Shown: positions 1 to 29,327, counted from the stretch's first letter. The stretch: 64,000 bases of DNA from Candidatus Woesearchaeota archaeon (GCA_018655525.1 JABIJM010000002.1:109575-173574), one strand, 5' to 3'. Notes: generated from the letters alone by a model not told the origin. Translations and numbers: made by a program.

Positions 1-67
1 CTAATATCCTTATTCTCATATAACCAAACCTTTATAAACATAAATCACTTTTCTAAGGACATAAAAG

Positions 68-2410
68 ATGGTGAACAAAATAGACGTTTTTAGTCGTACT
101 ACTCGCAAAGCTAATTCTAAGAAAGGTCAGGTTACGGTTTTCATCATAATTGGAATCATTTTAGTCTTTGTTACTGCTGGAATTATATTCATAACTCAGT
201 CTGCTTCTGATGCAGGATTAACTGCTTCTGGTGATCCAATCATTGAAGATGCTCCTCAAGAATTCCGTCCATTACAACAATTTATAGAAGGATGTGTACA
301 AGATACAGCTAAGAAAGGATTAATTACGCTTGGTGAACAAGGAGGGTACATCTCTCCAAAAGGAAAGTTCTCAGCATCAGAACCAACTGAATCAGATGGT
401 TTAAATCTTGAACCTTTGAAAGTTCCTTATTGGCATTACAATAGTAAACCTTCTTCAGCATCCACTGTTGTGTTCACATCTAAACAACCTAAATTATATG
501 CAAAAGATGATCCTGATTTTAGTATTGAAGTACAATTAGCTGATTATGTTGAAGCAAATTTAGATTCTTGTTATTCAACATTTGATTCATTTAAATCCCA
601 GGGTTTTCTTATTGAAACAGATAAAATAGATGACGTAACTGTGAAAGTAGCAACAGATACAGTCAATTTTTGGGTGAAACAAGATATCTCTGCAGAGAAA
701 GGGAGCGCTCGTCATGAAATGAATCAATATTTCATTAAAATCCCGTTACGTTTAAAACATTTTTATGAAGTCGCATCTGATTTAACAGAACAAGAATTAA
801 ATCAACAATATTTAGAAAATATTGGATTAAATAATTTGCAAACATATACATTAGCAGACACTTCCAAATTACCTCCTACAAATACTGTGACTTTTGCGGC
901 AGTTAGTACAAATTCATGGAGTACGCCATTAGTGAAAGAAGATATCAAAAATATGTTAACTTCAAATGTTCCATTAATCAGATATCAGAGTAGTGTAGAT
1001 TTTTACAGATTTGAGTTTCCAGAATCTGATAATCAAAAATTAATTCAGAAATCCTATGATAATATGATTCTTCCAATTACAAAAGCAAAAGGTGTAGAAG
1101 TTTCTTTTGATTATTATGGGTGGGAACCTTATTTAGATATCAATGGGGGCGAAGAAACAATTGAACCAGAAAATAACATTATTAAAAGCCCACTTCCCGT
1201 AATCCCCTTTAATTTTAATTTCCAAAGATATCACAACACTTACGATTTATCATATCCCGTTCTGGTTTCAGTTAGAGACCCTAAAGCATTTAGCGGAGAA
1301 GGATATACATTCAATTTTGCTTTAGAATCAAATATTGTAAATAATAGAGCAGCAGTTGCAGATTATATTCAACCTGCAGTTATTCAAAGTCTAAGCCCCT
1401 CAATGGTTTGTGATAAAAATAAAAGGGATACAGAACTAATTAGGACTGTTGTTGTTGACAGTTTTACAAAAGAACCTTTAGATTTAGTAAAAATTGGTTT
1501 TGATGTCCCAAATCAAGAATATTGTGATATAGGTGAAACAAATACGCAAGGAACATTAGATGCAAAATATCCTGCAGTTTATGGTGGAAATATTGATTTG
1601 GTAAAATCAAATTATTTGTCTGGGATTATGCCTGTAAATACGTATAATTATAAAGATCAAGAAGCTATTGTTGGATATGCTGTTGAAGGATTAAATCAGC
1701 CAGTTATTCAATTACATAAATTACATGACGTCAATTTCCGTGTTCAAAAAAAATCTTTTGAAAAATGTGTGACAGACGAAGATGGTGATGAAACATGCTT
1801 TTCACAAGGATTATTCTCAGAAAAATCTGAGAAACAAATCTCTTATGATCCAGAAATGTTAGAGGAAACCCATGGATGGTCCTTTATAGATTTAGCAAAA
1901 AATCTTGAAGATGATGAAACAGCAGCAGTAATCCTAAAACGTGTATCAGGCTTGAATAATAATATTATTGAAGATGATTTTTCCACAGTTGTAAATGTAC
2001 AAGGGAACAACGTTGCAAGATTAAAAATTGTGCCAGGGATTTATGAAGTTACTGCATACCTTACAGATGAATTAGGAATTTATATCCCAGAAAGTGAACG
2101 ATGTACACCTGGTGTCTTAGAAGCAATTGCCTGTGTAGATCTTGATGGATGTTGTGTAATGTTCCCAGATACTGAATTAAAAGAATTTATTGCGGGACGA
2201 GTTTCGTGGAAAACACCAGAAACTTACATTACCATCACGCCAGAACAATTATATACCTCACAAGAAATAATTATTACATTACCTTCATTAAATCTTCAAG
2301 GCGTTCCATTAAACAATAGGATTACTGAAGATTTACAAATCGTAGAAAATGTTGCAAAAGCTTCCGCTACTCCTGAAATTAGGAAAGCTTTAGACATTAT
2401 ATTTAGATAG
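68..2410 (+). CDS. Large surface protein with archaeal class III (type IV pilin-like) signal peptide
   Basis: N-terminus ...SKKG|QVTVFIIIGIILVFVTAGIIF is a basic leader, then G-Q, then about 20 hydrophobic residues. This is typical of substrates of the archaeal prepilin peptidase (PibD/EppA). It is paralogous to the 14998..16332 ORF over the signal and the following FIEGC...GGY region. It is the first gene of a tightly packed plus-strand operon. Confidence 0.55.
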   Translation: MVNKIDVFSRTTRKANSKKGQVTVFIIIGIILVFVTAGIIFITQSASDAGLTASGDPIIEDAPQEFRPLQQFIEGCVQDTAKKGLITLGEQGGYISPKGKFSASEPTESDGLNLEPLKVPYWHYNSKPSSASTVVFTSKQPKLYAKDDPDFSIEVQLADYVEANLDSCYSTFDSFKSQGFLIETDKIDDVTVKVATDTVNFWVKQDISAEKGSARHEMNQYFIKIPLRLKHFYEVASDLTEQELNQQYLENIGLNNLQTYTLADTSKLPPTNTVTFAAVSTNSWSTPLVKEDIKNMLTSNVPLIRYQSSVDFYRFEFPESDNQKLIQKSYDNMILPITKAKGVEVSFDYYGWEPYLDINGGEETIEPENNIIKSPLPVIPFNFNFQRYHNTYDLSYPVLVSVRDPKAFSGEGYTFNFALESNIVNNRAAVADYIQPAVIQSLSPSMVCDKNKRDTELIRTVVVDSFTKEPLDLVKIGFDVPNQEYCDIGETNTQGTLDAKYPAVYGGNIDLVKSNYLSGIMPVNTYNYKDQEAIVGYAVEGLNQPVIQLHKLHDVNFRVQKKSFEKCVTDEDGDETCFSQGLFSEKSEKQISYDPEMLEETHGWSFIDLAKNLEDDETAAVILKRVSGLNNNIIEDDFSTVVNVQGNNVARLKIVPGIYEVTAYLTDELGIYIPESERCTPGVLEAIACVDLDGCCVMFPDTELKEFIAGRVSWKTPETYITITPEQLYTSQEIIITLPSLNLQGVPLNNRITEDLQIVENVAKASATPEIRKALDIIFR

Positions 2411-2414
2411 AATA

Positions 2415-5400
2415 ATGAGTAAACAAAAAAAAGGTGTGTCTGTACTGATGATTTTCCTCATCTTAGTTTTACCAATCTATTCTGCACAAGTTCTTGCAGT
2501 GAATGTACAAATAAATACAAACACCGGATTAGCTGGTGTTGATGGATTCATTGATGCAACCGGAGATACATGGACTGTGCAAGCATTAGTTACAAGTCCA
2601 CCCACAGATGTGCAACCTGAAGATTTAATCTTACAAATTGGCACAAATTCTGCAAAATTCAATTCATGTGGTGATGATACATTAGGAAAATTATGTAAAT
2701 ATGAAAGCCCATTATCTGGTGGTGTGAAAGAAGGGTCACATCCATTCCAAGTAATCTATCAACCAGCAGGAGGCGCAGAATTAGCTTCAGATTCTAGTAT
2801 TATTACATCAGATGGATCTGGACCAACAATTTCAACAGTTAATGCATTTCAACAAGAAGGTGTTGTATTAATGACATTTACAGTTATTGAAGATGTTGAT
2901 GGGTCTGGAATCAAAAAAATAGAAATTTTAAATGCAAAATCAAGTGAAGTATTATTTACGAAAGAAATTCCTGCGAATACAAAAACCTATACATATAATG
3001 CAGAAGACGGAAAAATAGAACTACAAGGTGAAGGGCAACAGTATGTGAAAGTACGTGCAGAAGATAATCTTGGCCATGTATCTGTTTCTAATGTTGTTTC
3101 TTTCTCAGGAGACTTCGTTCCGCCTGTTATTATAGAAGATTCACTTGAATTAGTAGATTTAGGAAAATTTATCGGTCAATTTGAATCAACAACAGATATT
3201 TCTGTAAGTGTTAAAGAAAAAACAATTCCTCTTGTTACCGCATTATCAGAAGAAGCTAAAATTACAACTTCTGCAGAATGTGAAGATGATTTAACCGTTG
3301 TAGATTTATGGCATTGTACGTTTAAGAACGTGAAAGTATTTTCAGAGAGTAATACAGTGTCATTACAAGTGAAAGCCGTAGATTCAGCAGGTAATCAGGA
3401 TATAAAAACAATTACAAAGACATTAAGTAAAGATGCATCCTCACCAACTGTAAAATTCTTAGGAACAACACAAACATATAATGGGAAAAGTTTTATTAAA
3501 TCCGGTGAAAACAAAATTATTTTAATTGCAAGCGATGTTGGTTCCGGTGTAGATTTTAAATCTATTCGTGCTAATCTAAAAGGCATTGGGGGAGATTTAA
3601 GTATATCCCCAGATGCTTGTTATCAAGATGGAAAAGATACGATTTGTGTTTGGGAACAATCTAAAATATTTAGTTCTGATGAAATTATTCGTATTGGATT
3701 ATCACAGTTTAAAGATATTGCAGGAAATGAAGGAGATTTAAAAGAAGTAGAATTGTTTTCTGACATCTCAGAACCCAAAGTTGGAAAAATAGAAATCTAT
3801 GGTGGAGATAAAACATTCTTTCAAAGTAATGATCAATTAAAAATCAAAGTTAAGATTGCCGAAGAAAATGGATTACAAGTTCTTGTAAACCTAAATGATG
3901 TCGTGATGGATGCAGAAACTCTTTACCCTGCAACTGAGATCTCTGAAAAAGGATGGAAATTATTTACAGAAGAACAATGTACACGTCAAGATGGTGAAAC
4001 CGAATGGAATTGTGAATTTGTAACGGACACCATTAAATCAGGACCAGACATATTTAATTTGCAAGTAGCAGTTCATGATACTGCAGGAAATAATGCAGAA
4101 GAATGGGCGAAAAAACCCCTTAATGTAGAATCTGGTGATAAAGGAAATTATAGAATTAAGTTACTTGGATTAGATAGTGAAGCAAATCCAAATTATTGGG
4201 AAAAGTTATCTGCTGTACCTTTAGTAAAATTTGTAGATTTAGATACAACCAAATTAACACGTACCAGAATTCCATTTAATGTTCAATTTAAAAGTAAAAA
4301 AGCAAAAATGTTATCTTTAGATATTGTAGGATGTAAGCCTAAGGGTGAAAGTCCAGCTATCTCTAAAGGAAGTGTTAAGATTACAGAAAAAGGTTCAGGA
4401 GAAGATGTACCTTTGACAGAAAATCCTTCAGAAGAAGCTTCAAGTCTTCAATTAAGCCGTACATTAATAACTGGAAAGAACTTTCCAGGAGGAGATGTAT
4501 CACCAACATCCACAAAATTAATCATGGAATTCCAACCATTTGATGGTCATGAAATGTTTAATATTGGTGAAGAAGATGAATTTACAAAAGCAGAAGTAGA
4601 ATTTACATGTCAATTTAGATTATTCTCACAAGTTGGAAATTCTGCATTAAAAGCAGCAGAGATTCAAGAAATTGATGTAACTGTGCCATTTGCATTTTCT
4701 AAACTAGGTGCAGTTGATGAAAATATTGACAACAAAATACAAGATATCAAAGATGACATATGGTTTAAAATTCCAGATAGATTAGCAGTTGTTAATGACG
4801 TGTTGAAAATTGTAAGATATATTGGTCCGATTGTAAGTGTCTTGAAAAGTCTCAATGTTTTTTTTAACTTAGCCAATGGAAATATGGATGAAGTTAGAAC
4901 TTCCATTCCTGTTTATGGTCCTGCAGCTGCAATTAGTTCCTGTACAGCAACCGAAAATGTAATCCAAAAAGGATTGTGGGAAGGATTTGCAGTTTTTGAT
5001 GTAACTTTACAAGTATTATCATGTAACCCAGGACCTGCACCAACAACATGGTATGGAAAATATCAAAAAAATGTCTTAAATTTTTTTAATGCCTATAAAA
5101 GTCTTGGTATGAAACAAGATACAAGTTTATATGATAATATTTATTTATCATCGGCAGGATTATGTATTCCAGGCGTAATTCACAATTTAGAAAAATGGAG
5201 ACAAATTCAATGCATCCAGATAGATTGTTTACAAAACGTTGTTCCATCAGGAGCAGCAACAGTATCAAGCTGTGAAAAGATAAATGACATCTTAACATGT
5301 AAATATTTTACCGGAGAATTAGTTGGTATGTTTATCCCAATGACCGGATTAACAAAAGGAGTAAAAGATATGATTAAGGCAGCATTAACAAACCCAGTTG

Positions 5401-5606
5401 GTTTAGTCCGTGCAGGATTAACATTAGGTTGTTCGGCAAGTTGCGTTACATCAGGAACCGGCACAGCCTTCTGTGATTATGTTGGAATTGGAGTATTAGC
5501 AGTTGATACCATTGAAAATGTTATTGGATTAGTACAATCATACCCTACCATCAGTCAAGATTACTGCTCAAGAATAGGAGAAACAGGAACTAGTTTCCTC
5601 AGCTAA
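2415..5606 (+). CDS. Large secreted cysteine-rich surface protein (1063 aa)
   Basis: Starts 5 nt after the upstream stop. The N-terminal basic leader plus hydrophobic segment (MSKQKKGVSVLMIFLILVLPIYSAQVLA) is a Sec-type or class III-like signal. Sequence is Thr/Ser/Val-rich and beta-rich. The C-terminal 250 aa are Cys-rich. No catalytic motif recognised. Confidence 0.5.
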   Translation: MSKQKKGVSVLMIFLILVLPIYSAQVLAVNVQINTNTGLAGVDGFIDATGDTWTVQALVTSPPTDVQPEDLILQIGTNSAKFNSCGDDTLGKLCKYESPLSGGVKEGSHPFQVIYQPAGGAELASDSSIITSDGSGPTISTVNAFQQEGVVLMTFTVIEDVDGSGIKKIEILNAKSSEVLFTKEIPANTKTYTYNAEDGKIELQGEGQQYVKVRAEDNLGHVSVSNVVSFSGDFVPPVIIEDSLELVDLGKFIGQFESTTDISVSVKEKTIPLVTALSEEAKITTSAECEDDLTVVDLWHCTFKNVKVFSESNTVSLQVKAVDSAGNQDIKTITKTLSKDASSPTVKFLGTTQTYNGKSFIKSGENKIILIASDVGSGVDFKSIRANLKGIGGDLSISPDACYQDGKDTICVWEQSKIFSSDEIIRIGLSQFKDIAGNEGDLKEVELFSDISEPKVGKIEIYGGDKTFFQSNDQLKIKVKIAEENGLQVLVNLNDVVMDAETLYPATEISEKGWKLFTEEQCTRQDGETEWNCEFVTDTIKSGPDIFNLQVAVHDTAGNNAEEWAKKPLNVESGDKGNYRIKLLGLDSEANPNYWEKLSAVPLVKFVDLDTTKLTRTRIPFNVQFKSKKAKMLSLDIVGCKPKGESPAISKGSVKITEKGSGEDVPLTENPSEEASSLQLSRTLITGKNFPGGDVSPTSTKLIMEFQPFDGHEMFNIGEEDEFTKAEVEFTCQFRLFSQVGNSALKAAEIQEIDVTVPFAFSKLGAVDENIDNKIQDIKDDIWFKIPDRLAVVNDVLKIVRYIGPIVSVLKSLNVFFNLANGNMDEVRTSIPVYGPAAAISSCTATENVIQKGLWEGFAVFDVTLQVLSCNPGPAPTTWYGKYQKNVLNFFNAYKSLGMKQDTSLYDNIYLSSAGLCIPGVIHNLEKWRQIQCIQIDCLQNVVPSGAATVSSCEKINDILTCKYFTGELVGMFIPMTGLTKGVKDMIKAALTNPVGLVRAGLTLGCSASCVTSGTGTAFCDYVGIGVLAVDTIENVIGLVQSYPTISQDYCSRIGETGTSFLS

Positions 5607-5608
5607 AA

Positions 5609-8600
5609 ATGAAAAAACTAACCTTAATAATTGTACTTTTGCTTATGTTATCTAGTGTAGTCTACGCTGCAGAAGAAGTAGAAACAAATAATTGCGATGG
5701 ATTCTGGGGAAGCTTGAAATGCTTCTTAGTTGGGGATGCAGAGAATCGTGCTGGAATGAGTTGGTTTGATAGAAGCGAGAATTTAGTTGGTTTTGCTGGA
5801 GTTGTTCCAGATGGTTGGCAAAATAAACCTGCTGGAATTTATAAAGGTAAAGATGGAAAGTTATATGTTGTTGGTGTTGCTAAAAATAGAGGAATTGTTG
5901 ATCTTGCAAGAAAAGCAGCAATCGACAATGCAAAACAACAAATGGCAGAAGCAACAGGGGAATCTAATTTTAAATCAATAGCTCCAAATCAAAATTTTAA
6001 GGATGACAAGAATAAGTTATATAAAACCCTTATTGTAATTATTCCTGAAACTCCTGGGCAAAAAACTGATGTTCTAGCTTTAATGAAAAAAGTAGGAGAT
6101 AATGGTTATATGCCTACATTAGAAGATGTTCCAGTTTCACCACCGCAACCAACTCAACCTGATCAACCACAAGGTGCAACGTTGAATAAAGATTCCGTTC
6201 AATTAACTCCTAATGATTACAATACGAAGACTCCATTAACCAAAGACCAATATAAAGCTAAATTTCCAGATAATACTCCCGGTGATTATAATACTTATAG
6301 AAACATTTGGCCTTCTGTAAAATTTGAATCACAAGTAAAAAAGAATTATGATGTGAAGGATGTTAAAGTACAATCCTCAACATTAAATGGTGTGACAACA
6401 GGTCAAATAACAATCACAAAAAAAGATGGAACACAAGTTAAAATTCCTTATACTCGTGATTTAGATGATGATGTTGATAAGGGGAAGGATTTAGATCAAG
6501 TTGTGAATAAATATCTCAGTCAAAATTCAAATACTGCGAGTTTACCACCTAAATCATCTACACCTTCACCAATTGTTGTTCCACCTCTAACAAAAACTCC
6601 AACCTCCCAATCTGTATCCGCTCCAATAATTGTTCCTGCTAAAATTAAATCTGAAGTAAAAAATTCAGGAGCTCTTTCACTTTGTCAACCAACATCTCAA
6701 AAAGGATTATGTAGAGTTTCAGCGGGTGAATCTTTTAATATATTATACAAAGATGCTGAAGGAAACTTTAATCCAGTAACAAGCATCAAAGGAAAAGATA
6801 TTACTTATGATAAATCTAAAGGAACAACAGATCATACTAAAGTTACAGGAGCAGTTAATATCCTTGTTGCAAAGAAGGCTGGAGTGACAGGAGTTCCTGC
6901 AACTTCTGCACCGGTTGTTGTATCACCTACAGCACCAGCTGCACCTACCCCCGTTCCTCAAGTAATAAAGGATCTTGAAACTAAATGTAATAATGATGAT
7001 GCGAACGCTTGTTTTAATTTAGGTGTAAAATATGAATTTGGAGTTTCAGGTGTTGATAAAAATATTCCTAAATCCAAACAATTATTTAGAAAATCTTGTT
7101 TATTTGAATCTGGTGGTATAGCTTGTTCTAGTGCATTAGGTGTTGATTATGAGAACAAACCAAGTATCAAAACATATCAAGACAAATGGATCACTCAAAA
7201 ATGCCCTGATGGAGTATGTCCGACAGGAACAACGTGTATTGGAATAATTTCAAGCGGTAAATGTAAATCAAATGGAGAATTGACTGGTGAAACAGTCGCT
7301 GCAATGAAAGCAGATGTACAAACCGCTAACTTTGCTGAACCTGGAGCAGCAACACCAACTCCTTCACCAGTTCCCCCATCTTCAGCAGTACCTACACCTG
7401 CTCCTCAAACTCCAACTCAAATATCACCTGCACAAGTAGAAGCAGCAACACCACAACTAACTGATTCAGCAAAACAGATCTCAATTAAAAGTAATGGAGC
7501 TGGTGGGGCTGATATTTTGAAAAATAATGCTAAAATTACTGCTACACAAGGTGATATTACTGTAAATGGTGTTCGTCTTGATGGAGATAAAATAGTTGTT
7601 GATGCTACTAAAAAAATGTTATGGGGTGCCTATGATGGAACTGGAGACCTTGGAAGTTTTGAAAAGCAACCTGATGGTTCAGTCAAATTTATTCCTGGAG
7701 ATGATTATAATAAACTCGAAGGAGAACAAAGAACAGATTTTGATGAATTTAAGGACATGATGGTAAAAAGTCCGTCTGCTTTTAAGAAAGTTCAGGATAC
7801 AATTAAAAGTGATAGTATAGATGAAACAGTAACTGCACCAGAATTACGAGATGAAGCTAAGAAAGATGTAAAGGCAACTTTAGAAGCTAAGAAAAAAGCT
7901 GCGACTGGCGGTGATCCAACTAAACCTACTTCAGGAGAAAAAGCGAAAAAAATTTCACAAGCAGGTGGTCAAACTCCAGCTCCTACTCACGATAAAGTTA
8001 ATGAAAAACTTTTGAAGGAAGGAAAAGATCTCTATAAAAGGGGAAAAATTAAAGAAGCTGTTAAAAAGTTTGAAGAAGCTTGTGACAAAGGAAATGGCGC
8101 TTCCTGTGCAAATTTAGGTAATTTATATGGTTCTGGTTCCGCTGAAATTCCGAAAGATCAAGTCAAAGCTAATAGTTTATTCAAGAAAGCATGTGATGAT
8201 GGTACTGCTATTGCATGTAATTATTTAGGTGCAAATTATCAAGCCGGTGAAGGTATCACCAAGAACCAAGCTAAAGCTAATGAACTTTTTAAGAAAGGTT
8301 GTGAAAATGGTAACGCAGTTTCATGTAATAATCTCGCACAAAATTATTATCATGGGGATGGAGTTCCATCTGATTATGATAAAGCTAATAATCTTTTTGA
8401 AATTAGTTGTAATACAGGGAATGCAAATGCTTGTGCTTCTTTAGGATACAATTATCAAAAAGGTCTTGGTTATACTGTGAATAAAAATAAAGCTATGGAA
8501 CATTATGCTACATCTTGTAAATTAGGAGGAGATGATTCTTATTGTGCAGCAGCTGTAGGAATTACAGACGCTGATATTACAGGAGTAAAAAAATATAAAT

Positions 8601-10648: not shown

Positions 10649-11460
10649 ATATAAAATCCTATTTTAAACTGGACAAAACATTTTTCAAAATCTTTGCCAT
10701 AGATTTTGTGACATTCTGGGGATTGATCCTCATCTTCCTTGCATCAAGCACTTTCTGGATCTCTAAAGTCTCTTCAGTATTACAAGGTCAATCAGTAGAA
10801 GGATTACAAAACTTCTTATTAACAGCACCAATTGGGCAAGTACAGGACTTTCAATCAGATTTAGTTACTTTTTTCGCAGGAATCATCATTTTCATGATTC
10901 TCACCTTATTGGCAATCACATTCTCACGTTCATTTGTATGGAAAACATTACACAAAAAATGGGTTCCATTCTACAAATGGTTTTTATTAGCATTAGAATT
11001 GATTATTCCTTCAACAATCTATTTCTTTGCTTTCTTTATTGTTAGAATTATCTTATTAGAGATTGTCAAATTCATAGGGAACACATCTTACAACTCTATA
11101 ATTGGATCTGGTGTATATCCACAATCATTAATTGACATAAGCACATTATATATCAATGTTTTAGGAATGATCTTATACTTAATCTTACTTTTCATAACCT
11201 TTGCATCATTCACATCTGAATTACGTGTTTTAAGGGCTGTAGAGAAATCTTATCATATCATGCGCAAACAGATCAAACAAATATCTAAACTCTTCCTCAT
11301 CGCAACAATTGTGGCTATAATCCTCTCTCTGGTTTTACTTCCATTCAGATTCACATTATCCTATCAACCAGTATTAACAATGTTTTTGAATTCTGTTCTT
11401 ACATTTATGTTTATTAGTTGGTTGAGATTCAATACCTCACGCCTTGTCACTCAAAAGTAA
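10642..11460 (+). CDS. Polytopic membrane protein (about 6 TM helices), unknown function
   Basis: Overlaps the stop of the giant protein by 7 nt, suggesting translational coupling. Has multiple long hydrophobic segments. Confidence 0.45.
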   Translation: MVNIKSYFKLDKTFFKIFAIDFVTFWGLILIFLASSTFWISKVSSVLQGQSVEGLQNFLLTAPIGQVQDFQSDLVTFFAGIIIFMILTLLAITFSRSFVWKTLHKKWVPFYKWFLLALELIIPSTIYFFAFFIVRIILLEIVKFIGNTSYNSIIGSGVYPQSLIDISTLYINVLGMILYLILLFITFASFTSELRVLRAVEKSYHIMRKQIKQISKLFLIATIVAIILSLVLLPFRFTLSYQPVLTMFLNSVLTFMFISWLRFNTSRLVTQK

Positions 11461-11499
11461 CAAAAAATTTATAAAGTATTATTCTAATTTTAGTATAAA

Positions 11500-12288
11500 A
11501 TGACACATAAATATTCTCCTTTGATAGCAACAATCATTGCATTATCAGGTTGTACTACTTTTAATTCATGTACTTCCTCACAAAGTGTCATTGAATATCA
11601 TATTGATGAATCACTTCAACCAAAAAGTTCAACTTCTCATACAGTTGTTGAAAAAGTGGTTAAACCAAGGATGCCCAAAATTGTACCAGAATCAGTAACT
11701 AAACCTAAAGGAACACTTTCATTTGGTCGTCCAGTATTTAATGAAAGATATCACAATCAAAATGAGGATTTAGAAGATTTATTGGAAGGACATACAGGTC
11801 AACGAAAAATTGTAATTGATAAATCTGCAAGAGAATTACAGATATACGTTGGTGATGAACTAATTAAATCTTATGGGATTTCATTAAGTAGACGACATCA
11901 ATCTGGGCCTAAACAAAGAAAAGGAGATCTTAAGACACCTGAAGGACATTTTTATGCTGCTCGTAAGAACCCTAATAGTAGATGGCATAAAGCAATTGTA
12001 ATAAGTTATCCTGGTAAAGAAGATGCAATACGTGGATTAAAAAAGGGAATTATAACAAAAAGACAATATACACAAATTTTGAAAGCTCAAGATGAATGTC
12101 GTGAACCTCCAAGAACAAATTTAGGATCTCTGGTAGAAATTCATGGTGCTGGTGGCGGACGATTTTATCAAGATTGGACACATGGTTGTGCTTCATTAAA
12201 TAATAGAGCTATGGATGAAGTTTATAAATTTACATTCACTGGATGTTATAAAGGAAAACCTAAAACTGAAATAATCATTAAGCGATAA
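11500..12288 (+). CDS. Lipoprotein with L,D-transpeptidase (YkuD/ErfK-like) catalytic domain
   Basis: N-terminal hydrophobic segment ends in a lipobox-like LSGC. The C-terminal region carries IHGAGGG-x13-THGCASLNN, which matches the H...[S/T]HGC catalytic signature of L,D-transpeptidases (PF03734). Confidence 0.55.
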   Translation: MTHKYSPLIATIIALSGCTTFNSCTSSQSVIEYHIDESLQPKSSTSHTVVEKVVKPRMPKIVPESVTKPKGTLSFGRPVFNERYHNQNEDLEDLLEGHTGQRKIVIDKSARELQIYVGDELIKSYGISLSRRHQSGPKQRKGDLKTPEGHFYAARKNPNSRWHKAIVISYPGKEDAIRGLKKGIITKRQYTQILKAQDECREPPRTNLGSLVEIHGAGGGRFYQDWTHGCASLNNRAMDEVYKFTFTGCYKGKPKTEIIIKR

Positions 12289-15001
12289 CTTGTTTCTTAA
12301 CATTTTCACATGCAGTTTCTTTTCCTGATGAAACAGCAACACAATTAATTCCTGTTGTTGTATAATACCATTCATTCCCTACTTTTTTATACCACGACCT
12401 TTGATTTAATGTTCGTTCTCCATGAACTGTTTTTAATTTTGAATAAACATTTTCTGTCATATCATCAAAAGAATTTGTAAGTGCAAATTGTTGTTCATAA
12501 TAAGGGGCTTTTCCATCATATCCTTGAATAGTTTGAAGATTAGGATATTTGTCAAGTAACCGTTTTGCACCTATACTGGAATGTTCTCTTATTTTTTGTT
12601 GTATCTCTTTAGAATCAGAAATCTCATTTTTTGGAGATTCTACATCAACTAATGGAGGTCCTTCATCTACTTCAGGACTCGTTAGTGAATTACAAGCACT
12701 AAAATATACATTTTTCACATTACCCTCAGGCATGTTAACAATATTAAAAGTATCAATAGGATTATAATCAGGGTTATCTAAAACTTCTGCTGGAGCAAGA
12801 CTGGATAATTTTGTTGGAGCTTCTCTAAAAAAATAATCACTATCTTTAAAGAAATGCCCTGTTACAACAATATTTTCACTTTTTGTACTTGGAGGTGAAT
12901 CTCTACTATTTACAACAATACATCCCTCAATACGGCATCTACTCTCAAGTAATTGAGCAGTATCGGGATTTTCTCCTGCCATTATTATTGTTGTTTTTGG
13001 CGTCCATGTTTTTCCCACATCAGCTTGGCTTTTACCAGCAGGAGGAATTACTTTCCCATATGCTTTTGCATATTCATATTCACATTCACTTGGAGCGCAT
13101 GTAACAAAACTATTTCTTTTTTTTCGTGACCAACTTCCAGATGAAGATTGATATGGTTTAGAAAAATAATTTTCAACAGCTTTAGGTTGAGTTGTACTTG
13201 AAGACCAATGTTTAACATAAGGTAATTTATCAACAATAACTTTCTCTGTTTTGACAGTCATTGTTGATTGGCCTCGTGAAGGAATAGGAATATGTTTCCC
13301 CCTTCCATCAACATAATCCCAACCATATTTTTTTGTAAATACTAATTTTCCTTCTACTCCATTAATATCTAATGAATTTGGTAACTGTGGTTTTGTATTA
13401 ACATTTTGATTCTTTTTAGGAGGAAGTATTACTCCTTGTTTTTTTGCTAATTCTTGTGCAGCAGTCCTTGAACCAGGATTTTTTGAAATATAAGTTGAAC
13501 TTGAAATTACTTTGTCAGATTCATAAGCATAATCAATTTTTCCAGCTCTAAATTTATTTAAATCTCCTTTTGTTGTAATTTCACCATTAGGGGAGAAAGT
13601 GACTGTTGAACTTTTTTGTAATTTTCGTAATTCTCTTCTAGCATCATTCAAATTAAGTTTACGTATTCTTCTTTTATCTTTTTCAGTAAGATCCATTGAA
13701 ATACTGTCAATTGAGATCTCACCTTGTGATAATCCCTCAACATTTATTTTATCAAAATAGGCTCTAGATGTGAAATCAATTTTTTTTAATTTATTAAATT
13801 CATAAAAACCTAATTCTTCACGGTATGGAGGGTCTGCATTTGCCCCTATTGAATTTACAATACATGGTTTAAATGCACAATAATCACGCGCTTTACTTCC
13901 GGTATTTGTTTTTTCTTCTGAATAAAATATTTTTTGATCTTCTTCATTTACCAAAGAAAAACTTGAAGTTGTTCCTGCAATAATTCCATTACGTCCCATG
14001 ATAAAACTTGTCATTTTGAACTCTTCTCCTTTCTTAGCTAAAATTGTAAATTTATCTCTTAGTAAACGTGGATCATCTTTATCCGCATTTCCATCAATAA
14101 TTGTTCCTGTAATTGTATAACCTGTCGGATTTATATATCCTTCATCTGTTTCATCTTCAGTTGCAAATCTATTGAATGACGTTCCTGAAACCATTAAATT
14201 ATCATATGTAAATTCACCAACATATTTAATTTTAACACCTTCTTGTTCAATAACCATAGCTCCAAATAAAACTTCGCCATCACCCGCGGGAATATTTAAT
14301 GTTTTTACCTTAAAATCTAAATCTGGTAATTTTCCACTTTCCTCATTAGATTTTACATCAACAATTCCACCTACTGTTGTTAAAACTCCATCAGCTTTAC
14401 CTGCACCAACGGTTCCATACATAGAAACACCTTCCTTTAGAACTAATGAACCATCCTCTAAAACCTTTGAATTAGGGAAGTCAGCAATATTAAACCCAGT
14501 TGGTTTTTCTCCATCTGTTAAAACTTTACCATCTTTAAAATCTTTTATTTTTCCACCATTATCTTCTATACCATATTTCCCAAACCATTTCTTTTTTACT
14601 TCAGGTTTATCATTAATTAATGTTGGAGTTTTTTCTATCCTTATATTCATATTTTTAAAAAGTTCATCATTATCAAGCAAATTAGGATCAGATGAAGTTG
14701 CTCTTAGAAAATTCACATCATCAATTTTAACTGCAATAGAAGGGTTGGATTGCATAGCATTTACAAGATTGACTGTACTTATTTCTCCAAAATTTGTGAC
14801 TTGTCCGGATTCAATTGCGGCAGCCAAATCAGGTCCATTCATTTGGTTATAATCAATTGTTACAGGAGTAACTTGTGTCCCTGAACCAGCAACATCAGCT
14901 GTTTGGCCTTGATTTAAAGGTGGTGGAACATAGGTATTAGCGGCATAACTAATCACTGCTAAAATCATACAAATCATTATTATTGTTATAACTTTTTTCA
15001 T
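12278..15001 (-). CDS. Large secreted surface protein (about 907-916 aa)
   Basis: Sec-type signal (MKKVITIIMICMILAVISYAANTY). An alternative upstream ATG at 15028 would add 9 aa. The protein is Gly/Thr/Val-rich and beta-rich. Its 3' end overlaps the 3' end of the plus-strand lipoprotein gene by 11 nt (convergent). It is the second gene of a minus-strand operon headed by the pilin-like gene. Confidence 0.5.
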   Translation of the reverse strand: MKKVITIIMICMILAVISYAANTYVPPPLNQGQTADVAGSGTQVTPVTIDYNQMNGPDLAAAIESGQVTNFGEISTVNLVNAMQSNPSIAVKIDDVNFLRATSSDPNLLDNDELFKNMNIRIEKTPTLINDKPEVKKKWFGKYGIEDNGGKIKDFKDGKVLTDGEKPTGFNIADFPNSKVLEDGSLVLKEGVSMYGTVGAGKADGVLTTVGGIVDVKSNEESGKLPDLDFKVKTLNIPAGDGEVLFGAMVIEQEGVKIKYVGEFTYDNLMVSGTSFNRFATEDETDEGYINPTGYTITGTIIDGNADKDDPRLLRDKFTILAKKGEEFKMTSFIMGRNGIIAGTTSSFSLVNEEDQKIFYSEEKTNTGSKARDYCAFKPCIVNSIGANADPPYREELGFYEFNKLKKIDFTSRAYFDKINVEGLSQGEISIDSISMDLTEKDKRRIRKLNLNDARRELRKLQKSSTVTFSPNGEITTKGDLNKFRAGKIDYAYESDKVISSSTYISKNPGSRTAAQELAKKQGVILPPKKNQNVNTKPQLPNSLDINGVEGKLVFTKKYGWDYVDGRGKHIPIPSRGQSTMTVKTEKVIVDKLPYVKHWSSSTTQPKAVENYFSKPYQSSSGSWSRKKRNSFVTCAPSECEYEYAKAYGKVIPPAGKSQADVGKTWTPKTTIIMAGENPDTAQLLESRCRIEGCIVVNSRDSPPSTKSENIVVTGHFFKDSDYFFREAPTKLSSLAPAEVLDNPDYNPIDTFNIVNMPEGNVKNVYFSACNSLTSPEVDEGPPLVDVESPKNEISDSKEIQQKIREHSSIGAKRLLDKYPNLQTIQGYDGKAPYYEQQFALTNSFDDMTENVYSKLKTVHGERTLNQRSWYKKVGNEWYYTTTGINCVAVSSGKETACENVKKQVIA

Positions 15002-16332
15002 TTGACTTCTAACTCCCACCGTTGCCATGTTGAACCATAATTATTAATTGCATCTACTCTAATATAATGTATTCCTACATTTTCAGGTGAAGGAGTAAAA
15101 TACATTTCTCCAGTCTTATTATTTATTTCAAAAAGGTATGTTCCTGATGAAAAAGATAAAGCACGTTCTGCATTAACTTTTAAAGAAAAGTTTGTGCCAA
15201 CATGTGCAACTTGTTTTTCAATTTTATTCATTTTTGGAGATAATTCATCTTCGATATTAATTGAAATTCGTAATGGGGCTACTTTTTCATTTCCAAAAGG
15301 ATCAATGACTTTTACATAATGTAAATATTCGTCATTACCTAATTTGACAGGATCTAATGAAATCACACCAGAGCTATCAATAGAAAATGTATCAGTATCT
15401 AATTCAAATTGTAATCCTTCGCCGAATGAAGGAACTTTTAATATTTTAATTCCATGCGTAGAAATTTTCCATGTTGGAATTTCATTTAATCCAAAAAATT
15501 CATAAAATAAAATATCTTTTACTGGTGGGATTTCTATTACTTTTTCTTCATCAAACGTCCAGTCAAATCCAAGAGCAAAATTCCATATAAAAGGATTTTG
15601 TCCGTTATCTTCATTTAAAATAATTTCAAAAAGAATATTTTCTCCATTTATACCATAATTTTGAAATTGAACTTGGATCCCCTCGTAAGACAAAGATTCT
15701 GATAGAGAACTTAATAATAATTCTTCCTTCATAGATTGAGTTTTTATAAATGAATTTACTTTTGCATAAGGTCCAATAAATTTTAGAGGAATTGACGTTT
15801 CAAAGACTCTCCGTTCCGCATTTTTTGATCCTAAGCTTACTTTAAAAGGAAATGTTAAATGTGTCATTAATTTTGTGTTTGTAAATTCTGATCTAATTAA
15901 AGGAACTCCGATATTAAATTTATAACCTTCTTTTTCAAAAGATTTGAAATTATTAATACATTCAAGAAATTTTGTTTCACTTATAGATGAAATACTCTCG
16001 GAAAATGTTGATAGTGAAGGAAACATTTTATTACTTTTATGTAAATAGAATGGTACGATTAATTTATCTGAACCTTCATTATATGTGAATCCTGCTAAAG
16101 AAGAACCAATGGTGGTATATCCTCCATTATTTAATACAATTGATGTTGATTCAGTAAGACTTTTTTCAAGACATGAACTTACAAACAATTCAACAGAATC
16201 TATATTAAATTGAACATCAGTAGGTAATTCTTCTATTGATGAAGATTTAACAAGTAAAATAATCAAAGCAGTAACAAATAACAGAATTATTCCTATAATT
16301 ATAAACACCGTAACCTGTCCTCTTTTATTCAT
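14998..16332 (-). CDS. Surface protein with archaeal class III (type IV pilin-like) signal peptide, paralog of the 68..2410 product
   Basis: N-terminus MNKRG|QVTVFIIIGIILLFVTALIIL has a short basic leader, then G-Q and a hydrophobic helix. The following LFVSSCLEKS...LNNGGY region resembles FIEGCVQDT...GEQGGY in the 780-aa protein. Confidence 0.55.
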   Translation of the reverse strand: MNKRGQVTVFIIIGIILLFVTALIILLVKSSSIEELPTDVQFNIDSVELFVSSCLEKSLTESTSIVLNNGGYTTIGSSLAGFTYNEGSDKLIVPFYLHKSNKMFPSLSTFSESISSISETKFLECINNFKSFEKEGYKFNIGVPLIRSEFTNTKLMTHLTFPFKVSLGSKNAERRVFETSIPLKFIGPYAKVNSFIKTQSMKEELLLSSLSESLSYEGIQVQFQNYGINGENILFEIILNEDNGQNPFIWNFALGFDWTFDEEKVIEIPPVKDILFYEFFGLNEIPTWKISTHGIKILKVPSFGEGLQFELDTDTFSIDSSGVISLDPVKLGNDEYLHYVKVIDPFGNEKVAPLRISINIEDELSPKMNKIEKQVAHVGTNFSLKVNAERALSFSSGTYLFEINNKTGEMYFTPSPENVGIHYIRVDAINNYGSTWQRWELEVK

Positions 16333-20402: not shown

Positions 20403-21854
20403 TTAGGATGGCTTAATCTGTGGATTTTGTTGGTTTTCTTCCTTATCCCCTTCTTTCTTTGGTTCAATTGAAACCTCAGAGCCATGTTCCTTATCTACAA
20501 TGACTTTCTTCTTTTTCCGACCATCTTCTTGCATCTTTAAATCACGTAAATGTCGCTTCCAACGATTCATAGTATAATTAACAGGGTTCTTGATATGGCT
20601 ACACAACATATCTTTCTCACATATGCCCATATCTACGTAATACGCTGCATTATCGCAATTTGGAGGTAACTTTTCACCTGCTTTATAATGATGCATCTGA
20701 CCGCGAATATAGCCTTCTCGTAATGGCTCTGGATTCTTAGAGTTCCACACCATCAAATACTTCTCAACTTCAGGTTTACTCCATCCAACTTTACCAAGAT
20801 AATTCATCATTGCAAATAATGTCCTTTTCTTACCGTCTTCAATACCAAGTAATGCTTTCTTAATGCAAGGAGGAAAAAAGATCTCTTGAATTGGATTTTC
20901 CAGTTTTACTTCTTGAAATTGTTTTTCTGTTTCAATCTGTCTTTTTTCATCTATTTTTGCAGCATAATCTAATGCATTTTTAAGAATCCTAGTCCCACTT
21001 TCATCAGAAACCTCACGACCTAGAAATGTAAACTCAGAAGGGATTATTTTATCTGGGTGAGCCATAGGCTTTTCAAATTCCATCACTTTAGAAGGATCAA
21101 TTGGGAGACTTGCTAATCCAGATTTCTCATGTAATGAATAAGGCATACGATAGAGGTGTCTTGATGAAATTAATACAGTGTCAATCTCCAAAAATTTGTC
21201 GACGTTAAGTTTTGATATTTTGTCGCCCATGGGGTTGGTAGAATAACGAATAATTTCTTCTTCTTTTAGCCCCACTTTTTCTTTAATTTTTCCAAAACTA
21301 CCCTCTAATTCCATAATTCTTCTTCCTAGTTCCTCGTCAATATGATCTCGGATATATAATGCAATCTTTTTAGGAAATTCAGGAAACTGTTCGCTTGTTA
21401 TAATCTCACCTACCCTTTCTGGAAACGCTTCAAAAGGCACACCAATATGGAACCCCTTATTTCCTGAAAACTTACAGCTAATGGCGTCTTCTTTCACGTG
21501 GTTAAATCTAAGAAATTTAATAATTAAATCAGCACAAATCTTACTATAATCCATAAATGGGCAATCGATATCTAACACTAAATCCCATCCGATTCTCTCT
21601 TCATTCATCTCCTTCCGCCTCATATCGGAGTGAATGTTCAAAGGATTTTGCCATCGTTCCTCGGAGGCATGTAGCGACGTTAAACCTCTTTTAGCAAAAT
21701 CAAATACATCACGAGGATAATTTAATACATCTGGTCTTTTTCCAAAAAATGTATCAAACCTTGTGCCAACCTCTTTATCGCGGGCATGTTTGATAATCTC
21801 GTTTTGAATATCTTCACGTTTATAGTACTTTAGAAGCGTGCTTTTGGTGAGCAT
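20403..21854 (-). CDS. priS: DNA primase small catalytic subunit PriS with Cys-rich C-terminal extension
   Basis: Archaeo-eukaryotic primase motifs are present (LVLDIDCPF; SGNKGFHIGVP; RHLYRMPYSLHEKSG). The 483-aa length and the C-terminal ~150 aa with four Cys (PPCIKK...; PPNCDN...GICEKDMLCSH) suggest a fused accessory or Fe-S domain. Confidence 0.8.
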   Translation of the reverse strand: MLTKSTLLKYYKREDIQNEIIKHARDKEVGTRFDTFFGKRPDVLNYPRDVFDFAKRGLTSLHASEERWQNPLNIHSDMRRKEMNEERIGWDLVLDIDCPFMDYSKICADLIIKFLRFNHVKEDAISCKFSGNKGFHIGVPFEAFPERVGEIITSEQFPEFPKKIALYIRDHIDEELGRRIMELEGSFGKIKEKVGLKEEEIIRYSTNPMGDKISKLNVDKFLEIDTVLISSRHLYRMPYSLHEKSGLASLPIDPSKVMEFEKPMAHPDKIIPSEFTFLGREVSDESGTRILKNALDYAAKIDEKRQIETEKQFQEVKLENPIQEIFFPPCIKKALLGIEDGKKRTLFAMMNYLGKVGWSKPEVEKYLMVWNSKNPEPLREGYIRGQMHHYKAGEKLPPNCDNAAYYVDMGICEKDMLCSHIKNPVNYTMNRWKRHLRDLKMQEDGRKKKKVIVDKEHGSEVSIEPKKEGDKEENQQNPQIKPS

Positions 21855-28496: not shown

Positions 28497-29327
28497 ATGG
28501 ATATAAGAAAAAATCATGATTTACGGTTAAGAACATATGATCATTTAATCAAACTTAAAAAACAAGGCATTTCAAGAAAAAAAATTATTGATTTAACTTA
28601 TGATAATTATAAAATTTCAATTGGAACATTATATTCATGGTATTCGGGGAATAAACCTTATGGAAGGAAAGATAATGTTGTTTATGTACCAGAATTGTTT
28701 TATGTTTTAGGAGCACTTTTAGGGGATGGTTGTCCATACCAATGGAAAATTACAAATAATTATGTTATTCTTGTAGGTGATAATAATTTTACAACAAAAT
28801 ATTCAAATAAACTTGCTTCTTGTATTAAAAAAATTGATAAACCATATATTGACAGAAGTAAAAATGTTTGGTTTGTAAGATCTAATAATTATGAATTGTT
28901 TACTCTTTTTAAAAAATCGCGTGAAAATAATGATTTTCTTAAAAAAATGATTAATAAAGAAAAACATTTATCATCTATTTTTTTTGTTGAAGGTTTCTTT
29001 GATGCTGAAGGCTGTGTCAAAATAATTAAAGAAAAAACAAGAAAAATACCAAAAATTTGTCTTGATTTTACAAATACAGACTTTAAGATTCTTGAAGTAA
29101 TTAAACTAATTCTTAAAGAAAATCTTGGAATTGATGCAAGGTATTCTGAACAAAAATCTTATGTTGGGAGAGATGGATCTTATAGAAAAAAGTGTTATCA
29201 TCTTAGAATTTACAAAAAGAATTATGTTAAAATATTCTTAGAAAATATTCACACAACAAAATTAACAAATAAAAAAGCAACTTTGGTCAAAAAATGGATT
29301 AAAAAAATAAAAATTAAGCAGTTTTAA
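28497..29327 (+). CDS. Free-standing LAGLIDADG homing-endonuclease-like protein with N-terminal HTH-like region
   Basis: Two LAGLIDADG-type motifs are present, LFYVLGALLGDGC and FFVEGFFDAEGCV. It is not embedded in an intein or intron host gene. The sequence is Lys/Asn-rich. Confidence 0.6.
   Translation: MDIRKNHDLRLRTYDHLIKLKKQGISRKKIIDLTYDNYKISIGTLYSWYSGNKPYGRKDNVVYVPELFYVLGALLGDGCPYQWKITNNYVILVGDNNFTTKYSNKLASCIKKIDKPYIDRSKNVWFVRSNNYELFTLFKKSRENNDFLKKMINKEKHLSSIFFVEGFFDAEGCVKIIKEKTRKIPKICLDFTNTDFKILEVIKLILKENLGIDARYSEQKSYVGRDGSYRKKCYHLRIYKKNYVKIFLENIHTTKLTNKKATLVKKWIKKIKIKQF

What the first reader, a model, noticed from the sequence alone, without database searches (positions are those of the whole stretch)
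1..16332. Convergent two-operon cell-surface locus: pilin-like leaders heading giant secreted proteins
Two tightly packed operons, plus strand 68-12288 and minus strand 16332-12278, face each other with 3' ends overlapping by 11 nt. Each begins with a protein carrying an archaeal class III (prepilin-type) signal peptide. Each then continues into giant secreted proteins of 1063, 1679 and 916 aa, a polytopic membrane protein and an L,D-transpeptidase-like lipoprotein. Intergenic gaps are 3-5 nt or the genes overlap, suggesting co-translation of a multi-component apparatus. In a small-genome archaeon this reads as a dedicated adhesion or host-attachment machine, not housekeeping S-layer genes. 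None of the large proteins has a motif I can tie to a described archaeal surface structure.
Basis: partly seen in the sequence, partly recalled or inferred. Interest (0 to 1): 0.85.

Follow-up and report, generated by a model that had tools for sequence, protein, structure and literature searches.

The report
Woesearchaeal anchor-plus-giant-protein surface gene modules
This stretch of an uncultured Woesearchaeota (DPANN) genome holds a four-gene cell-surface cassette found in at least 417 related species, plus an optional add-on module; each starts with a member of an unnamed protein family with a pilin-type N-terminus that nearly always sits just upstream of a giant secreted protein, a likely route by which these tiny archaea dress their surface.

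Summary

The two operons differ in status.
- O1-O2-O3-O4 (68-11460) is collinear, follows MetRS, and relatives of O1 occur in at least 417 species-level Woesearchaeota/Nanoarchaeota genomes.
- O5 (YkuD) and O7->O6 are an accessory trio. They appear in only some relatives, beside the cassette, in variable orientation.

O1 and O7 belong to one unannotated superfamily, here called LEAD (2087 cluster representatives at E<=1e-3). Its leader is [KR][KR]-[G/A/S]-Q-[VI]-T-[VI]-F-I-I-x-G-I, followed by a ~200-aa domain with no PDB match.
- In 103 of 124 cases a LEAD gene is followed, at a median gap of 2 nt, by a Sec-signal protein of 500 aa or more from a highly variable family.
- LEAD subtype tracks the partner family.

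Best reading: modular surface display, in which a pilin-like or bitopic anchor holds its own giant exoprotein. Cleavage by a prepilin peptidase, filament formation and host attachment remain untested. No pilin HMM matches, and no type IV filament machinery lies nearby. I rate it a new variant of a known kind, of moderate to high interest.

The parts
68..2410 (+). O1: 780-aa LEAD-family protein. It has a basic N-region, the 'KKG|QVTVFIIIGIILVF' class-III-like leader and TM helix (aa 19-49), a low-confidence linker, a novel alpha/beta domain (about aa 64-440) and tandem CnaB/transthyretin-like beta-sandwiches (about aa 450-780). First gene of the conserved cassette. A TTTATA box lies ~35 nt upstream of the ATG, just before the window start.
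   Evidence: >400 homologues, all 'hypothetical', no Pfam; Q21 invariant; G20, T23, F25, I26, I27, G29, I30 conserved; AF2 pLDDT 88.2; only beta-sandwich fold matches; promoter-like TATA.
2415..5606 (+). O2: 1063-aa secreted protein. It has a Sec signal (conserved P.YSA), about 6-7 Ig/FN3-like beta-sandwich domains (aa 30-760) and a Cys-rich, hydrophobic all-helical C-terminal domain (aa 765-1063, poorly modelled). Cognate partner of O1.
5609..10648 (+). O3: 1679-aa secreted protein. The signal plus N-terminal Cys motif and the last ~270 aa are conserved. The central region varies between genomes (O3 relatives range from about 350 to 1679 aa); here it is expanded with PT-rich linkers, 5 Sel1 repeats (about aa 800-975) and duplicated Cys modules.
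   Evidence: Sel1 106.8 bits; only aa ~1400-1679 and aa 1-60 match relatives.
10642..11460 (+). O4: 272-aa polytopic membrane protein (~6 TM helices, no Cys). It overlaps the O3 stop by 7 nt and is the last gene of the conserved cassette. No known family and no catalytic signature: only W113 is invariant (besides the start Met), and D21, W100, F190 and R262 are nearly invariant.
   Evidence: (38 loci).
11500..12288 (+). O5: 262-aa YkuD (L,D-transpeptidase-fold) protein with a lipobox-like 'ALSGC' and conserved IHG...GC catalytic residues. Accessory: it recurs next to LEAD+O6-type and LEAD+c42-type modules, not next to every cassette.
12278..15028 (-). O6: secreted protein of 916 aa, or 907 aa if it starts at 15001. 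It is the fast-evolving partner of O7. The conserved C-terminal domain (aa ~600-900) has invariant GH(725) and S-x-C(779)-N and no family match.
   Evidence: only itself found by word search; 24-36% identical relatives directly after O7 orthologues in L089-L093 and L147; a C-terminal fragment in L106.
14998..16332 (-). O7: 444-aa LEAD-family protein. It has the leader 'MNKRG|QVTVFIIIGIILLF', the shared ~200-aa N-domain (conserved C54, G70-G71-Y72, C125) and C-terminal PKD/Ig-like repeats. First gene of the accessory module. TATA-like boxes lie 30-50 nt upstream.
   Evidence: (2087 representatives at E<=1e-3).

Best explanation
The region holds two instances of one modular design: a LEAD protein followed by its own giant Sec-exported partner.

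Proposed mechanism:
1. The LEAD protein (O1, O7) inserts through its strictly conserved N-terminal hydrophobic helix. The [KR][KR]-[G/A/S]|Q grammar suggests the short basic leader is removed by the archaeal prepilin (class III) peptidase, as for pilins and for the Sulfolobus bindosome sugar-binding proteins.
2. The helix then keeps the protein in the membrane or in a short pilin-like bundle.
3. A flexible linker tethers a ~200-aa disulfide-bonded domain that docks the partner encoded immediately downstream and translated in a coupled way (O2 for O1, O6 for O7). The exoprotein is thereby held on the surface of a cell with no wall to bind it.

O1-O2-O3-O4 is the core version and is probably a structural or adhesive envelope complex. 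O1 supplies a beta-sandwich stalk, O2 an Ig-domain arm, O3 a variable interaction module (Sel1 repeats here) and O4 a membrane platform. O7-O6 with the YkuD enzyme O5 is an optional add-on. It is probably enzymatic and may act on an envelope polymer of a neighbouring cell.

Shown here: family membership, leader conservation, gene adjacency and coupling, co-inheritance of each LEAD subtype with its partner family, and secretion signals.
Inferred: leader cleavage, physical docking, surface retention and the biological target.
For: - Conserved cassette. O1-O2-O3(C-terminus)-O4 is collinear in nearly every locus with enough flank, downstream of MetRS. Relatives of O1 occur in at least 417 species-level genomes.
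- One superfamily. O1 and O7 share the leader and N-domain motifs (C...QGGY...PY[WY]). There are 2087 representatives at E<=1e-3. Every named member is from Woesearchaeota/Nanoarchaeota and labelled 'hypothetical'.
- Leader conservation beyond what hydrophobicity needs. K at -3 in 82%, R/K at -2 in 89%, a small residue at -1, T at +3 in 93%, F at +5 in 97%. Q is invariant in independent alignments. G, A or S at -1 persists in distant members, and leader length varies from 4 to 66 aa while the motif stays at the start of the helix.
- Pairing. 103 of 124 LEAD genes are followed on the same strand, at a median gap of 2 nt, by an ORF of 500 aa or more. 100 of those 103 have N-terminal signals. The control rate for other genes is 17%.
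- LEAD subtype tracks partner family: 21 of 24 nearest neighbours agree, against 1.1 expected.
- The O7-O6-O5 trio recurs next to the cassette in different orientations (L090, L092, L089, L133).
- The AF2 model shows helix 19-49, then a low-confidence linker, then globular domains and a CnaB/transthyretin-like stalk.
- Precedents in the literature. Non-pilin class-III-signal proteins encoded away from type IV filament clusters, and large Ig-rich adhesin-like proteins in archaeal type IV filament loci, including in DPANN (bioRxiv 10.64898/2026.04.22.720090; PMC4858521). The archaellin gene flaB is among the top expressed Woesearchaeota genes, which implies that a prepilin peptidase exists in the lineage (PMC11606122).
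Against: - No curated class III signal, pilin or archaellin HMM matches any LEAD N-terminus, even at E<=10.
- No prepilin peptidase, secretion ATPase or platform protein was seen in the window, within 10 kb either side, or in about 2 Mb of related loci. The scan of the loci used motifs only and is a weak test.
- The helix-linker-domain model is not a canonical pilin fold, and no pilin appears among the listed fold matches. The conserved leader could serve helix-helix packing in an uncleaved signal anchor.
- Physical LEAD-partner binding is inferred from gene order only. The tracking of LEAD subtype with partner family can also come from the pair being inherited as a unit.
- The O2 C-terminal domain and all of O3, O4 and O6 remain without a fold assignment.
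Confidence: 0.5

Rival explanations
1. A true type IV filament. LEAD proteins would be (minor or modular) pilins polymerised by machinery encoded elsewhere in the genome. The giant partners would be tip or shaft adhesins, comparable to PilY1 or the DUF2341 proteins, so the locus would encode the parts of an attachment pilus.
For: The class III grammar of the leader. Small pilin-sized ORFs (141-205 aa) with [KR][GA]Q leaders occur inside some LEAD clusters. Several LEADs sit in tandem in some loci. Large adhesin-like proteins are known in archaeal type IV filament loci, and such systems exist in DPANN (PMC4858521; 10.64898/2026.04.22.720090). Bimodular pilins with grafted domains are known in Streptococcus sanguinis (from my own knowledge).
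Against: No pilin HMM matches. The predicted helix is short and is followed by a variable-length, low-confidence linker rather than a continuous alpha-1 helix packed on a sheet. No pilin appears among the listed fold matches. No ATPase, platform or peptidase gene was linked to any of 168 loci. An 80-kDa LEAD such as O1 is very bulky for a filament subunit.
Confidence: 0.2
2. An ordinary two-component S-layer. O1 would be a membrane-anchored stalk, like SlaB, and O2 (with or without O3) the outer lattice protein, like SlaA. The cassette would then be housekeeping envelope.
Against: Those fold matches are generic beta-sandwich hits at the same level as dozens of unrelated proteins. No S-layer Pfam family matches. 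35-47% identity across the order is high for S-layer proteins. Other genes are already annotated and expressed as S-layer proteins in Woesearchaeota (PMC11606122; a faint S_layer_C hit on a different gene in L003). The same LEAD design is reused with many unrelated partners, some of them enzymatic, which an S-layer does not explain.
Confidence: 0.15
3. An antagonism or predation toolkit. The giant partners would be deployed enzymes or toxins against the envelope of a bacterial or archaeal host, and LEAD would be their delivery or presentation subunit. O5 (YkuD) and O6 would attack or remodel peptidoglycan-like polymers.
For: O5 is a YkuD-fold enzyme with intact His and Cys in an organism that makes no murein. 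One partner family in related loci carries a poly-gamma-glutamate hydrolase domain (PF05908, 8.9e-38). A NAGPA phosphodiester glycosidase is encoded next to LEAD modules on the opposite strand. An HExxH motif occurs in another partner family (sequence). Peptidoglycan hydrolases are frequent in Nanoarchaeota (PMC12352652), and Woesearchaeota have been proposed to degrade bacterial walls (PMC9723730).
Against: O2, O3 and O6 themselves have no recognisable hydrolase domain. The GH...SxCN motif in O6 is only a conjecture. The core cassette looks structural. YkuD enzymes build or trim cross-links rather than lyse walls.
Confidence: 0.15

Closest known systems
Sulfolobus bindosome substrate-binding proteins (GlcS, AraS, TreS) and other non-pilin class III signal peptide proteins
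   Same: Large non-pilin ectodomains behind a conserved class-III-type leader and hydrophobic helix. They are encoded away from the type IV filament machinery and are tethered at the surface (10.64898/2026.04.22.720090; PMC4858521).
   Different: LEAD ectodomains are not solute-binding proteins and do not sit next to ABC transporters. They are paired with giant secreted partners. No assembly ATPase or platform (BasEF equivalent) has been identified. Cleavage is unproven.
Type IV pilus minor pilin / adhesin sets (PilY1 with minor pilins; archaeal DUF2341 proteins; modular pilins of Streptococcus sanguinis)
   Same: A pilin-type N-terminus is combined with bulky extra domains, and large adhesin-like proteins are encoded beside pilin-like genes.
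   Different: No pilin HMM or fold match was found. The helix is separated from the domain by a flexible linker. No DUF2341/PilY1 domain is present. No machinery genes are linked.
SlaA/SlaB two-component S-layer of Sulfolobales
   Different: The anchor is N-terminal and pilin-like, not a C-terminal TM helix. There is no sequence relationship. The cassette has four genes including a polytopic membrane protein. The same anchor family is reused with many partner families.
YkuD / ErfK / YafK L,D-transpeptidase-fold enzymes (for O5 only)
   Same: Pfam PF03734 scores above the gathering threshold. The His and Cys are conserved. The N-terminus is lipoprotein-like.
   Different: The host is an archaeon without murein. 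NCBIfam LdtF/DpaA/YafK scores far below its cut-off (43.8 against 365 bits). The motif reads 'THGCASL', without the Arg that I recall following the Cys in classical HGC[IV]R.

Membership tests
Archaeal class III (prepilin-type) signal peptide proteins | N-terminal basic residues, a small residue (G/A/S) at -1 and a fixed +1 residue immediately before a ~20-residue hydrophobic helix (FlaFind-type grammar) | tested here: met
   O1 has KKG|QVTVFIIIGIILVF and O7 has KRG|QVTVFIIIGIILLF. Over 153 distinct LEADs: K at -3 in 82%, R/K at -2 in 89%, T at +3 in 93%, F at +5 in 97%. Q is invariant in A1 and A3. S or A at -1 occurs in distant members.
Archaeal class III (prepilin-type) signal peptide proteins | Match to a curated class III signal, archaeal pilin or archaellin profile (for example PF04021, PF07790, PF01917) | tested here: not met
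   No such family was returned for O1 or O7 at E<=0.1, nor for their N-termini and four small pilin-like ORFs at E<=10.
Archaeal class III (prepilin-type) signal peptide proteins | Cleavage by a PibD/FlaK/EppA-type A24 peptidase encoded in the same genome | not testable with these tools
   Only about 84 kb of the 253-kb contig could be seen and no A24 family was found there. A GxGD[K/R] motif scan of the window and loci gave only chance hits in O2 homologues. The rest of the genome could not be read.
Type IV pilins | Continuous N-terminal alpha-helix whose C-terminal half packs on an antiparallel beta-sheet (pilin fold) | tested here: inconclusive
Type IV filament systems | Genomic linkage with a secretion ATPase (PilB/FlaI family) and a platform protein (PilC/FlaJ/TadC) | tested here: not met
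   No T2SSE or T2SSF Pfam hit among the 30 largest other ORFs of the window. No GxTGSGKT[TS] Walker motif in the window or in 1764 ORFs of 168 loci. Bindosome-type class III proteins are also unlinked from their machinery, so this does not exclude processing.
Archaeal S-layer proteins | Match to an S-layer family, or specific structural similarity to a known S-layer protein | tested here: inconclusive
YkuD L,D-transpeptidase catalytic domain (O5) | Pfam PF03734 above the gathering score, with the catalytic His and Cys conserved | tested here: met
   54.4 bits against a cut-off of 23.4, E=2.8e-14. 'IHG' and 'GC' are conserved in all 9 distinct homologues aligned.
LdtF/DpaA/YafK amidase equivalog (O5) | NCBIfam NF040599 above its curated cut-off | tested here: not met
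   43.8 bits against a cut-off of 365, with only residues 104-180 matched.
Sel1 repeat proteins (O3, central region) | Pfam PF08238 repeats above the gathering score | tested here: met
   106.8 bits against 30.7, five repeats at about aa 800-975. The repeats are absent from most O3 homologues, in which only the C-terminus aligns.

The most novel reading that the evidence does not exclude
LEAD plus partner is a previously undescribed archaeal 'two-partner' surface system. A dedicated docking subunit with a class-III-type leader is co-translated with each giant exoprotein and holds it on the cell. The O1-O4 version would organise the whole envelope of Woesearchaeales. Interchangeable accessory versions (O7-O6-O5 here) would deploy enzymes against the walls of host or prey cells, making this the molecular basis of woesearchaeal attachment and 'vampirism'.
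Probability: 0.3. Interest if true: 0.8.

Novelty: new variant of a known kind. Interest (0 to 1): 0.6.

Why it matters
Woesearchaeota are among the most abundant and diverse DPANN archaea. None has been studied in pure co-culture, and nothing is known about how they build their surface or contact partners.

This locus points to three things:
- A near-universal four-gene cassette in that lineage.
- A very large protein family (2087 representatives at 50% identity) with no Pfam or NCBIfam annotation.
- A simple, testable rule: leader protein first, giant secreted partner second.

If the leader is a real class III signal, the set of non-filament proteins that use the pilin pathway grows considerably. 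It would also give concrete targets (O1, O2) for antibodies, surface proteomics and cryo-ET in enrichment cultures. The accessory modules, with YkuD and, in relatives, a poly-gamma-glutamate hydrolase domain and a neighbouring phosphodiester glycosidase, tie into current proposals that these archaea attack bacterial envelopes.

Tried and rejected
- Pfam, NCBIfam and PHROGs on all seven proteins gave only Sel1 (O3), YkuD (O5) and sub-threshold Ig/PKD hits.
- Profile searches of the O1, O4 and O6 families against PDB sequences found nothing credible.
- O2, O3 and O6 are not paralogues of each other.
- A word-based homologue search suggested O6 is an orphan. tblastn on loci fetched through O7 overturned this by finding divergent O6-like genes.
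- I considered O6 to be a clan CD (caspase/CHAT-like) peptidase because of 'VVTGH...FSACN'. No Pfam or PDB support was found, so it remains a conjecture.
- I considered O4 to be an archaeosortase or rhomboid-like enzyme. I rejected this: it has no Cys, no conserved catalytic residues and no family match.
- A viral or mobile origin is not supported. There is no LEAD relative in IMG/VR, the only PHROG hits are to the Sel1 and YkuD domains, and the neighbourhood is housekeeping.
- The first alignment of the O7 family was too diverse for a locus search and was redone with closer members.
- Motif scans for an A24 peptidase and a PilB-like ATPase found nothing. This is a weak negative.


Full report
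**1. Observation**

The ORF map matches the finding exactly.
- On the + strand: O1 68-2410 (780 aa), O2 2415-5606 (1063 aa), O3 5609-10648 (1679 aa), O4 10642-11460 (272 aa), O5 11500-12288 (262 aa).
- On the - strand: O7 16332-14998 (444 aa), O6 15028-12278 (916 aa).

The junctions are a 4-nt gap, a 2-nt gap, a 7-nt overlap and a 39-nt gap on the + strand. The O7/O6 junction is a 31-nt overlap, or an ATGA overlap if O6 starts at its tenth codon, as NCBI annotates it. The two 3' ends overlap by 11 nt. TATA-like boxes lie about 30-50 nt upstream of both first genes; this rests on consensus reading only.

The proteins look as described.
- O2, O3 and O6 have Sec-type signals.
- O4 has about six hydrophobic helices and no cysteine.
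- O5 is a YkuD-domain protein (PF03734, 54.4 bits) with a lipobox-like ALSGC.
- O1 and O7 carry the only two '[KR]GQ + hydrophobic run' leaders in the 64-kb window. They align over their first ~100 residues.

**2. Organism and setting**

Downstream of O7 lie rpoN, S9, L13, L18e, rpoD, S11, S4, S13 and a fused PriS-PriL primase. The rest of the window is archaeal housekeeping, plus a TaqI-like restriction-modification pair and a Xer-like recombinase.

The identical locus is in the Candidatus Woesearchaeota assembly GCA_018672075.1 and in a 253-kb ENA contig, with MetRS directly upstream of O1. GC content is about 32% throughout, so nothing suggests a foreign island.

**3. The two operons are not equivalent**

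O1 has more than 400 homologues. All are full length, 33-47% identical outside the closest relatives, all are called 'hypothetical' and none has a Pfam domain. A scan of one genome per GTDB species found relatives in at least 417 genomes. Every titled record is Woesearchaeota or Nanoarchaeota, or carries a generic label.

tblastn of all seven proteins against 85 loci shows O1, O2, the C-terminal ~270 aa of O3, and O4 in that order on one strand, wherever the contig is long enough. O5 and O6 are never present, and O7 matches only the O1 N-terminus apart from a few separate paralogues. ORF maps give MetRS, then O1 (~770-860 aa), O2 (~1040-1200 aa), O3 (about 350-1679 aa) and O4 (~260-290 aa).

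In L056 and L064, O4 is followed directly by a convergent run of ORFs whose sizes match the S9...S4 operon of the window. This suggests O5-O7 were inserted at that spot in this lineage; the identity of those ORFs was judged from size and order only.

**4. The accessory trio is nevertheless real and linked**

The O7 family has 2087 representatives at E<=1e-3 and 419 at E<=1e-10. They include ~445-aa orthologues and many ~250-aa proteins that consist of the leader plus the N-domain only.

Loci fetched through this family show several arrangements:
- L092 has O7->O6-> <-O5<-O4<-O3, the same convergent layout as the window. O3 and O4 are 72-77% identical to the window copies, but O7 is only 35% and O6 24-31% identical.
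- L090 has O2, O3, O4, O7 and O6 all on one strand, with O5 opposite.
- L089 has O5, O7, O6 and O5.
- L133 has O3, O4, an O7-like gene and O5.

So O6 is not an orphan, as the word-based search had suggested. It is a fast-evolving partner. The trio is a recurrent, movable neighbour of the cassette.

**5. A general rule emerges**

I clustered 1764 ORFs from 168 loci and mapped gene order. LEAD genes are almost always followed by a large gene on the same strand.
- 103 of 124 distinct LEADs with room downstream are followed in this way. The median gap is 2 nt, the partner is 554-2841 aa, and 100 of 103 partners have an N-terminal hydrophobic signal. The rate for other genes is 17%.
- Partner families are highly diverse (O2, O6-type and at least five others), and most have no annotation. 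One carries a poly-gamma-glutamate hydrolase domain, and a neighbouring gene encodes a NAGPA phosphodiester glycosidase.
- YkuD genes recur beside two kinds of module.
- The nearest-neighbour LEAD, compared over the N-terminal 260 aa, has the same partner family in 21 of 24 non-O2 cases, against 1.1 expected. The pair is therefore inherited, and probably functions, as a unit.
- LEAD relatives are absent from IMG/VR.

**6. The leader**

Across 153 distinct LEADs the consensus is K(82%)-[RK](89%)-[G/A]-Q-[VI]-T(93%)-[IV]-F(97%)-I-I-x-G(77%)-I. In that logo the G/A and Q positions were fixed by the search pattern. However, Q is invariant, and G nearly so, in independently built alignments. Distant members use S or A at -1. 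The motif always sits at the start of the helix, whether 4 or 66 residues precede it.

This is the grammar of archaeal class III signals. From my own knowledge, substrates of the EppA peptidase in Methanococcus have Q at +1; PMC4858521 confirms that EppA processes pilins there.

Against this, no curated class III or pilin HMM matches. No peptidase, ATPase or platform gene is visible in the ~84 kb of this genome I could read, or near any related locus.

The lineage does have type IV filament systems. flaB is among the top expressed woesearchaeal genes (PMC11606122), and type IV filament systems are reported in DPANN (10.64898/2026.04.22.720090). Non-pilin class III proteins such as bindosome components are typically encoded away from the machinery (same preprint).

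**7. Structures**

- O1 models well (pLDDT 88.2). It has helix 19-49, a low-confidence linker, an alpha/beta region of about 380 aa and then beta-sandwich domains.
- O4 has no family match and no conserved catalytic residues.
- The O6 C-terminal domain keeps an invariant GH...SxCN pattern, but no family match was found.

**8. Interpretation**

The most economical reading is a modular surface-display system. A LEAD subunit is anchored by a pilin-type helix, which is probably processed. It is tethered by a linker and holds the giant exoprotein encoded next to it.

O1-O4 is the core, probably structural or adhesive version. O7-O6-O5 is an optional version that is probably enzymatic. I put this at about 0.5.

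The rivals are:
- A true pilus with tip adhesins (0.2).
- A SlaA/SlaB-like S-layer for O1-O2 (0.15).
- An envelope-attack toolkit (0.15). This overlaps with the main model for the accessory module.

Its 'single dedicated attachment machine' is only partly supported. The pilin link is motif-level only, the two operons have different evolutionary status, and attachment is untested.

**9. Novelty**

My literature searches found no description of this family or cassette. The concepts it resembles are known: class III signals on non-pilin proteins, and large Ig-rich adhesins beside pilin genes. I therefore rate it a new variant of a known kind, with interest 0.6. It is a large, unannotated, lineage-defining family with a clear and testable gene-pair rule.

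Noticed in passing
window 20403-21854 (-): A single 483-aa ORF hits both the DNA primase small subunit (PF01896) and large subunit (PF04104), which indicates a fused PriS-PriL primase.
   Followed up: no
window 54752-55462 (+) and 55401-56240 (-): A TaqI-like restriction endonuclease gene and an N6/N4 DNA methylase gene converge and overlap by about 60 nt. A Xer/phage-integrase-family recombinase lies nearby at 57031-57831.
   Followed up: no
window 44018-45340 (+), 45415-46998 (-), 53397-54680 (+): Three DEAD-box helicase paralogues lie within 11 kb.
   Followed up: no
window 28497-29327 (+); L086 1-512 and 931-2085: A LAGLIDADG-domain ORF lies in the window. A second LAGLIDADG ORF sits just upstream of RtcB in the region before the window start, which may be a homing endonuclease or intein remnant.
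   Followed up: no
window 1-64000: There are no tRNA genes and no Rfam family at gathering threshold in 64 kb.
   Followed up: no
L121 17081-17569, L137 12384-12815, L159 12939-13364, L167 9324-9941: Small (141-205 aa), Cys-rich ORFs with their own [KR][GA]Q + hydrophobic leaders lie inside LEAD gene clusters of related metagenome contigs. They are pilin-sized but match no pilin HMM. None is present in the window.
   Followed up: partly
L162 (whole locus), L121, L151, L156, L164: Some relatives carry arrays of two to four LEAD+partner modules in tandem, often just downstream of PCNA. The Cys-rich 'c20' partner family is itself duplicated in these arrays.
   Followed up: partly
window 12278-12288: The convergent O5 and O6 coding regions overlap by 11 nt, leaving no room for a terminator between them. 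Transcripts from either side must therefore run into the other gene's 3' end.
   Followed up: no
L003 15471-19019: In one relative, a block of nucleotidyltransferase/HEPN toxin-antitoxin-like genes is inserted between the O2 and O3 homologues, so the cassette tolerates interruption there. Small ORFs also sit between O2 and O3 in several other loci.
   Followed up: no
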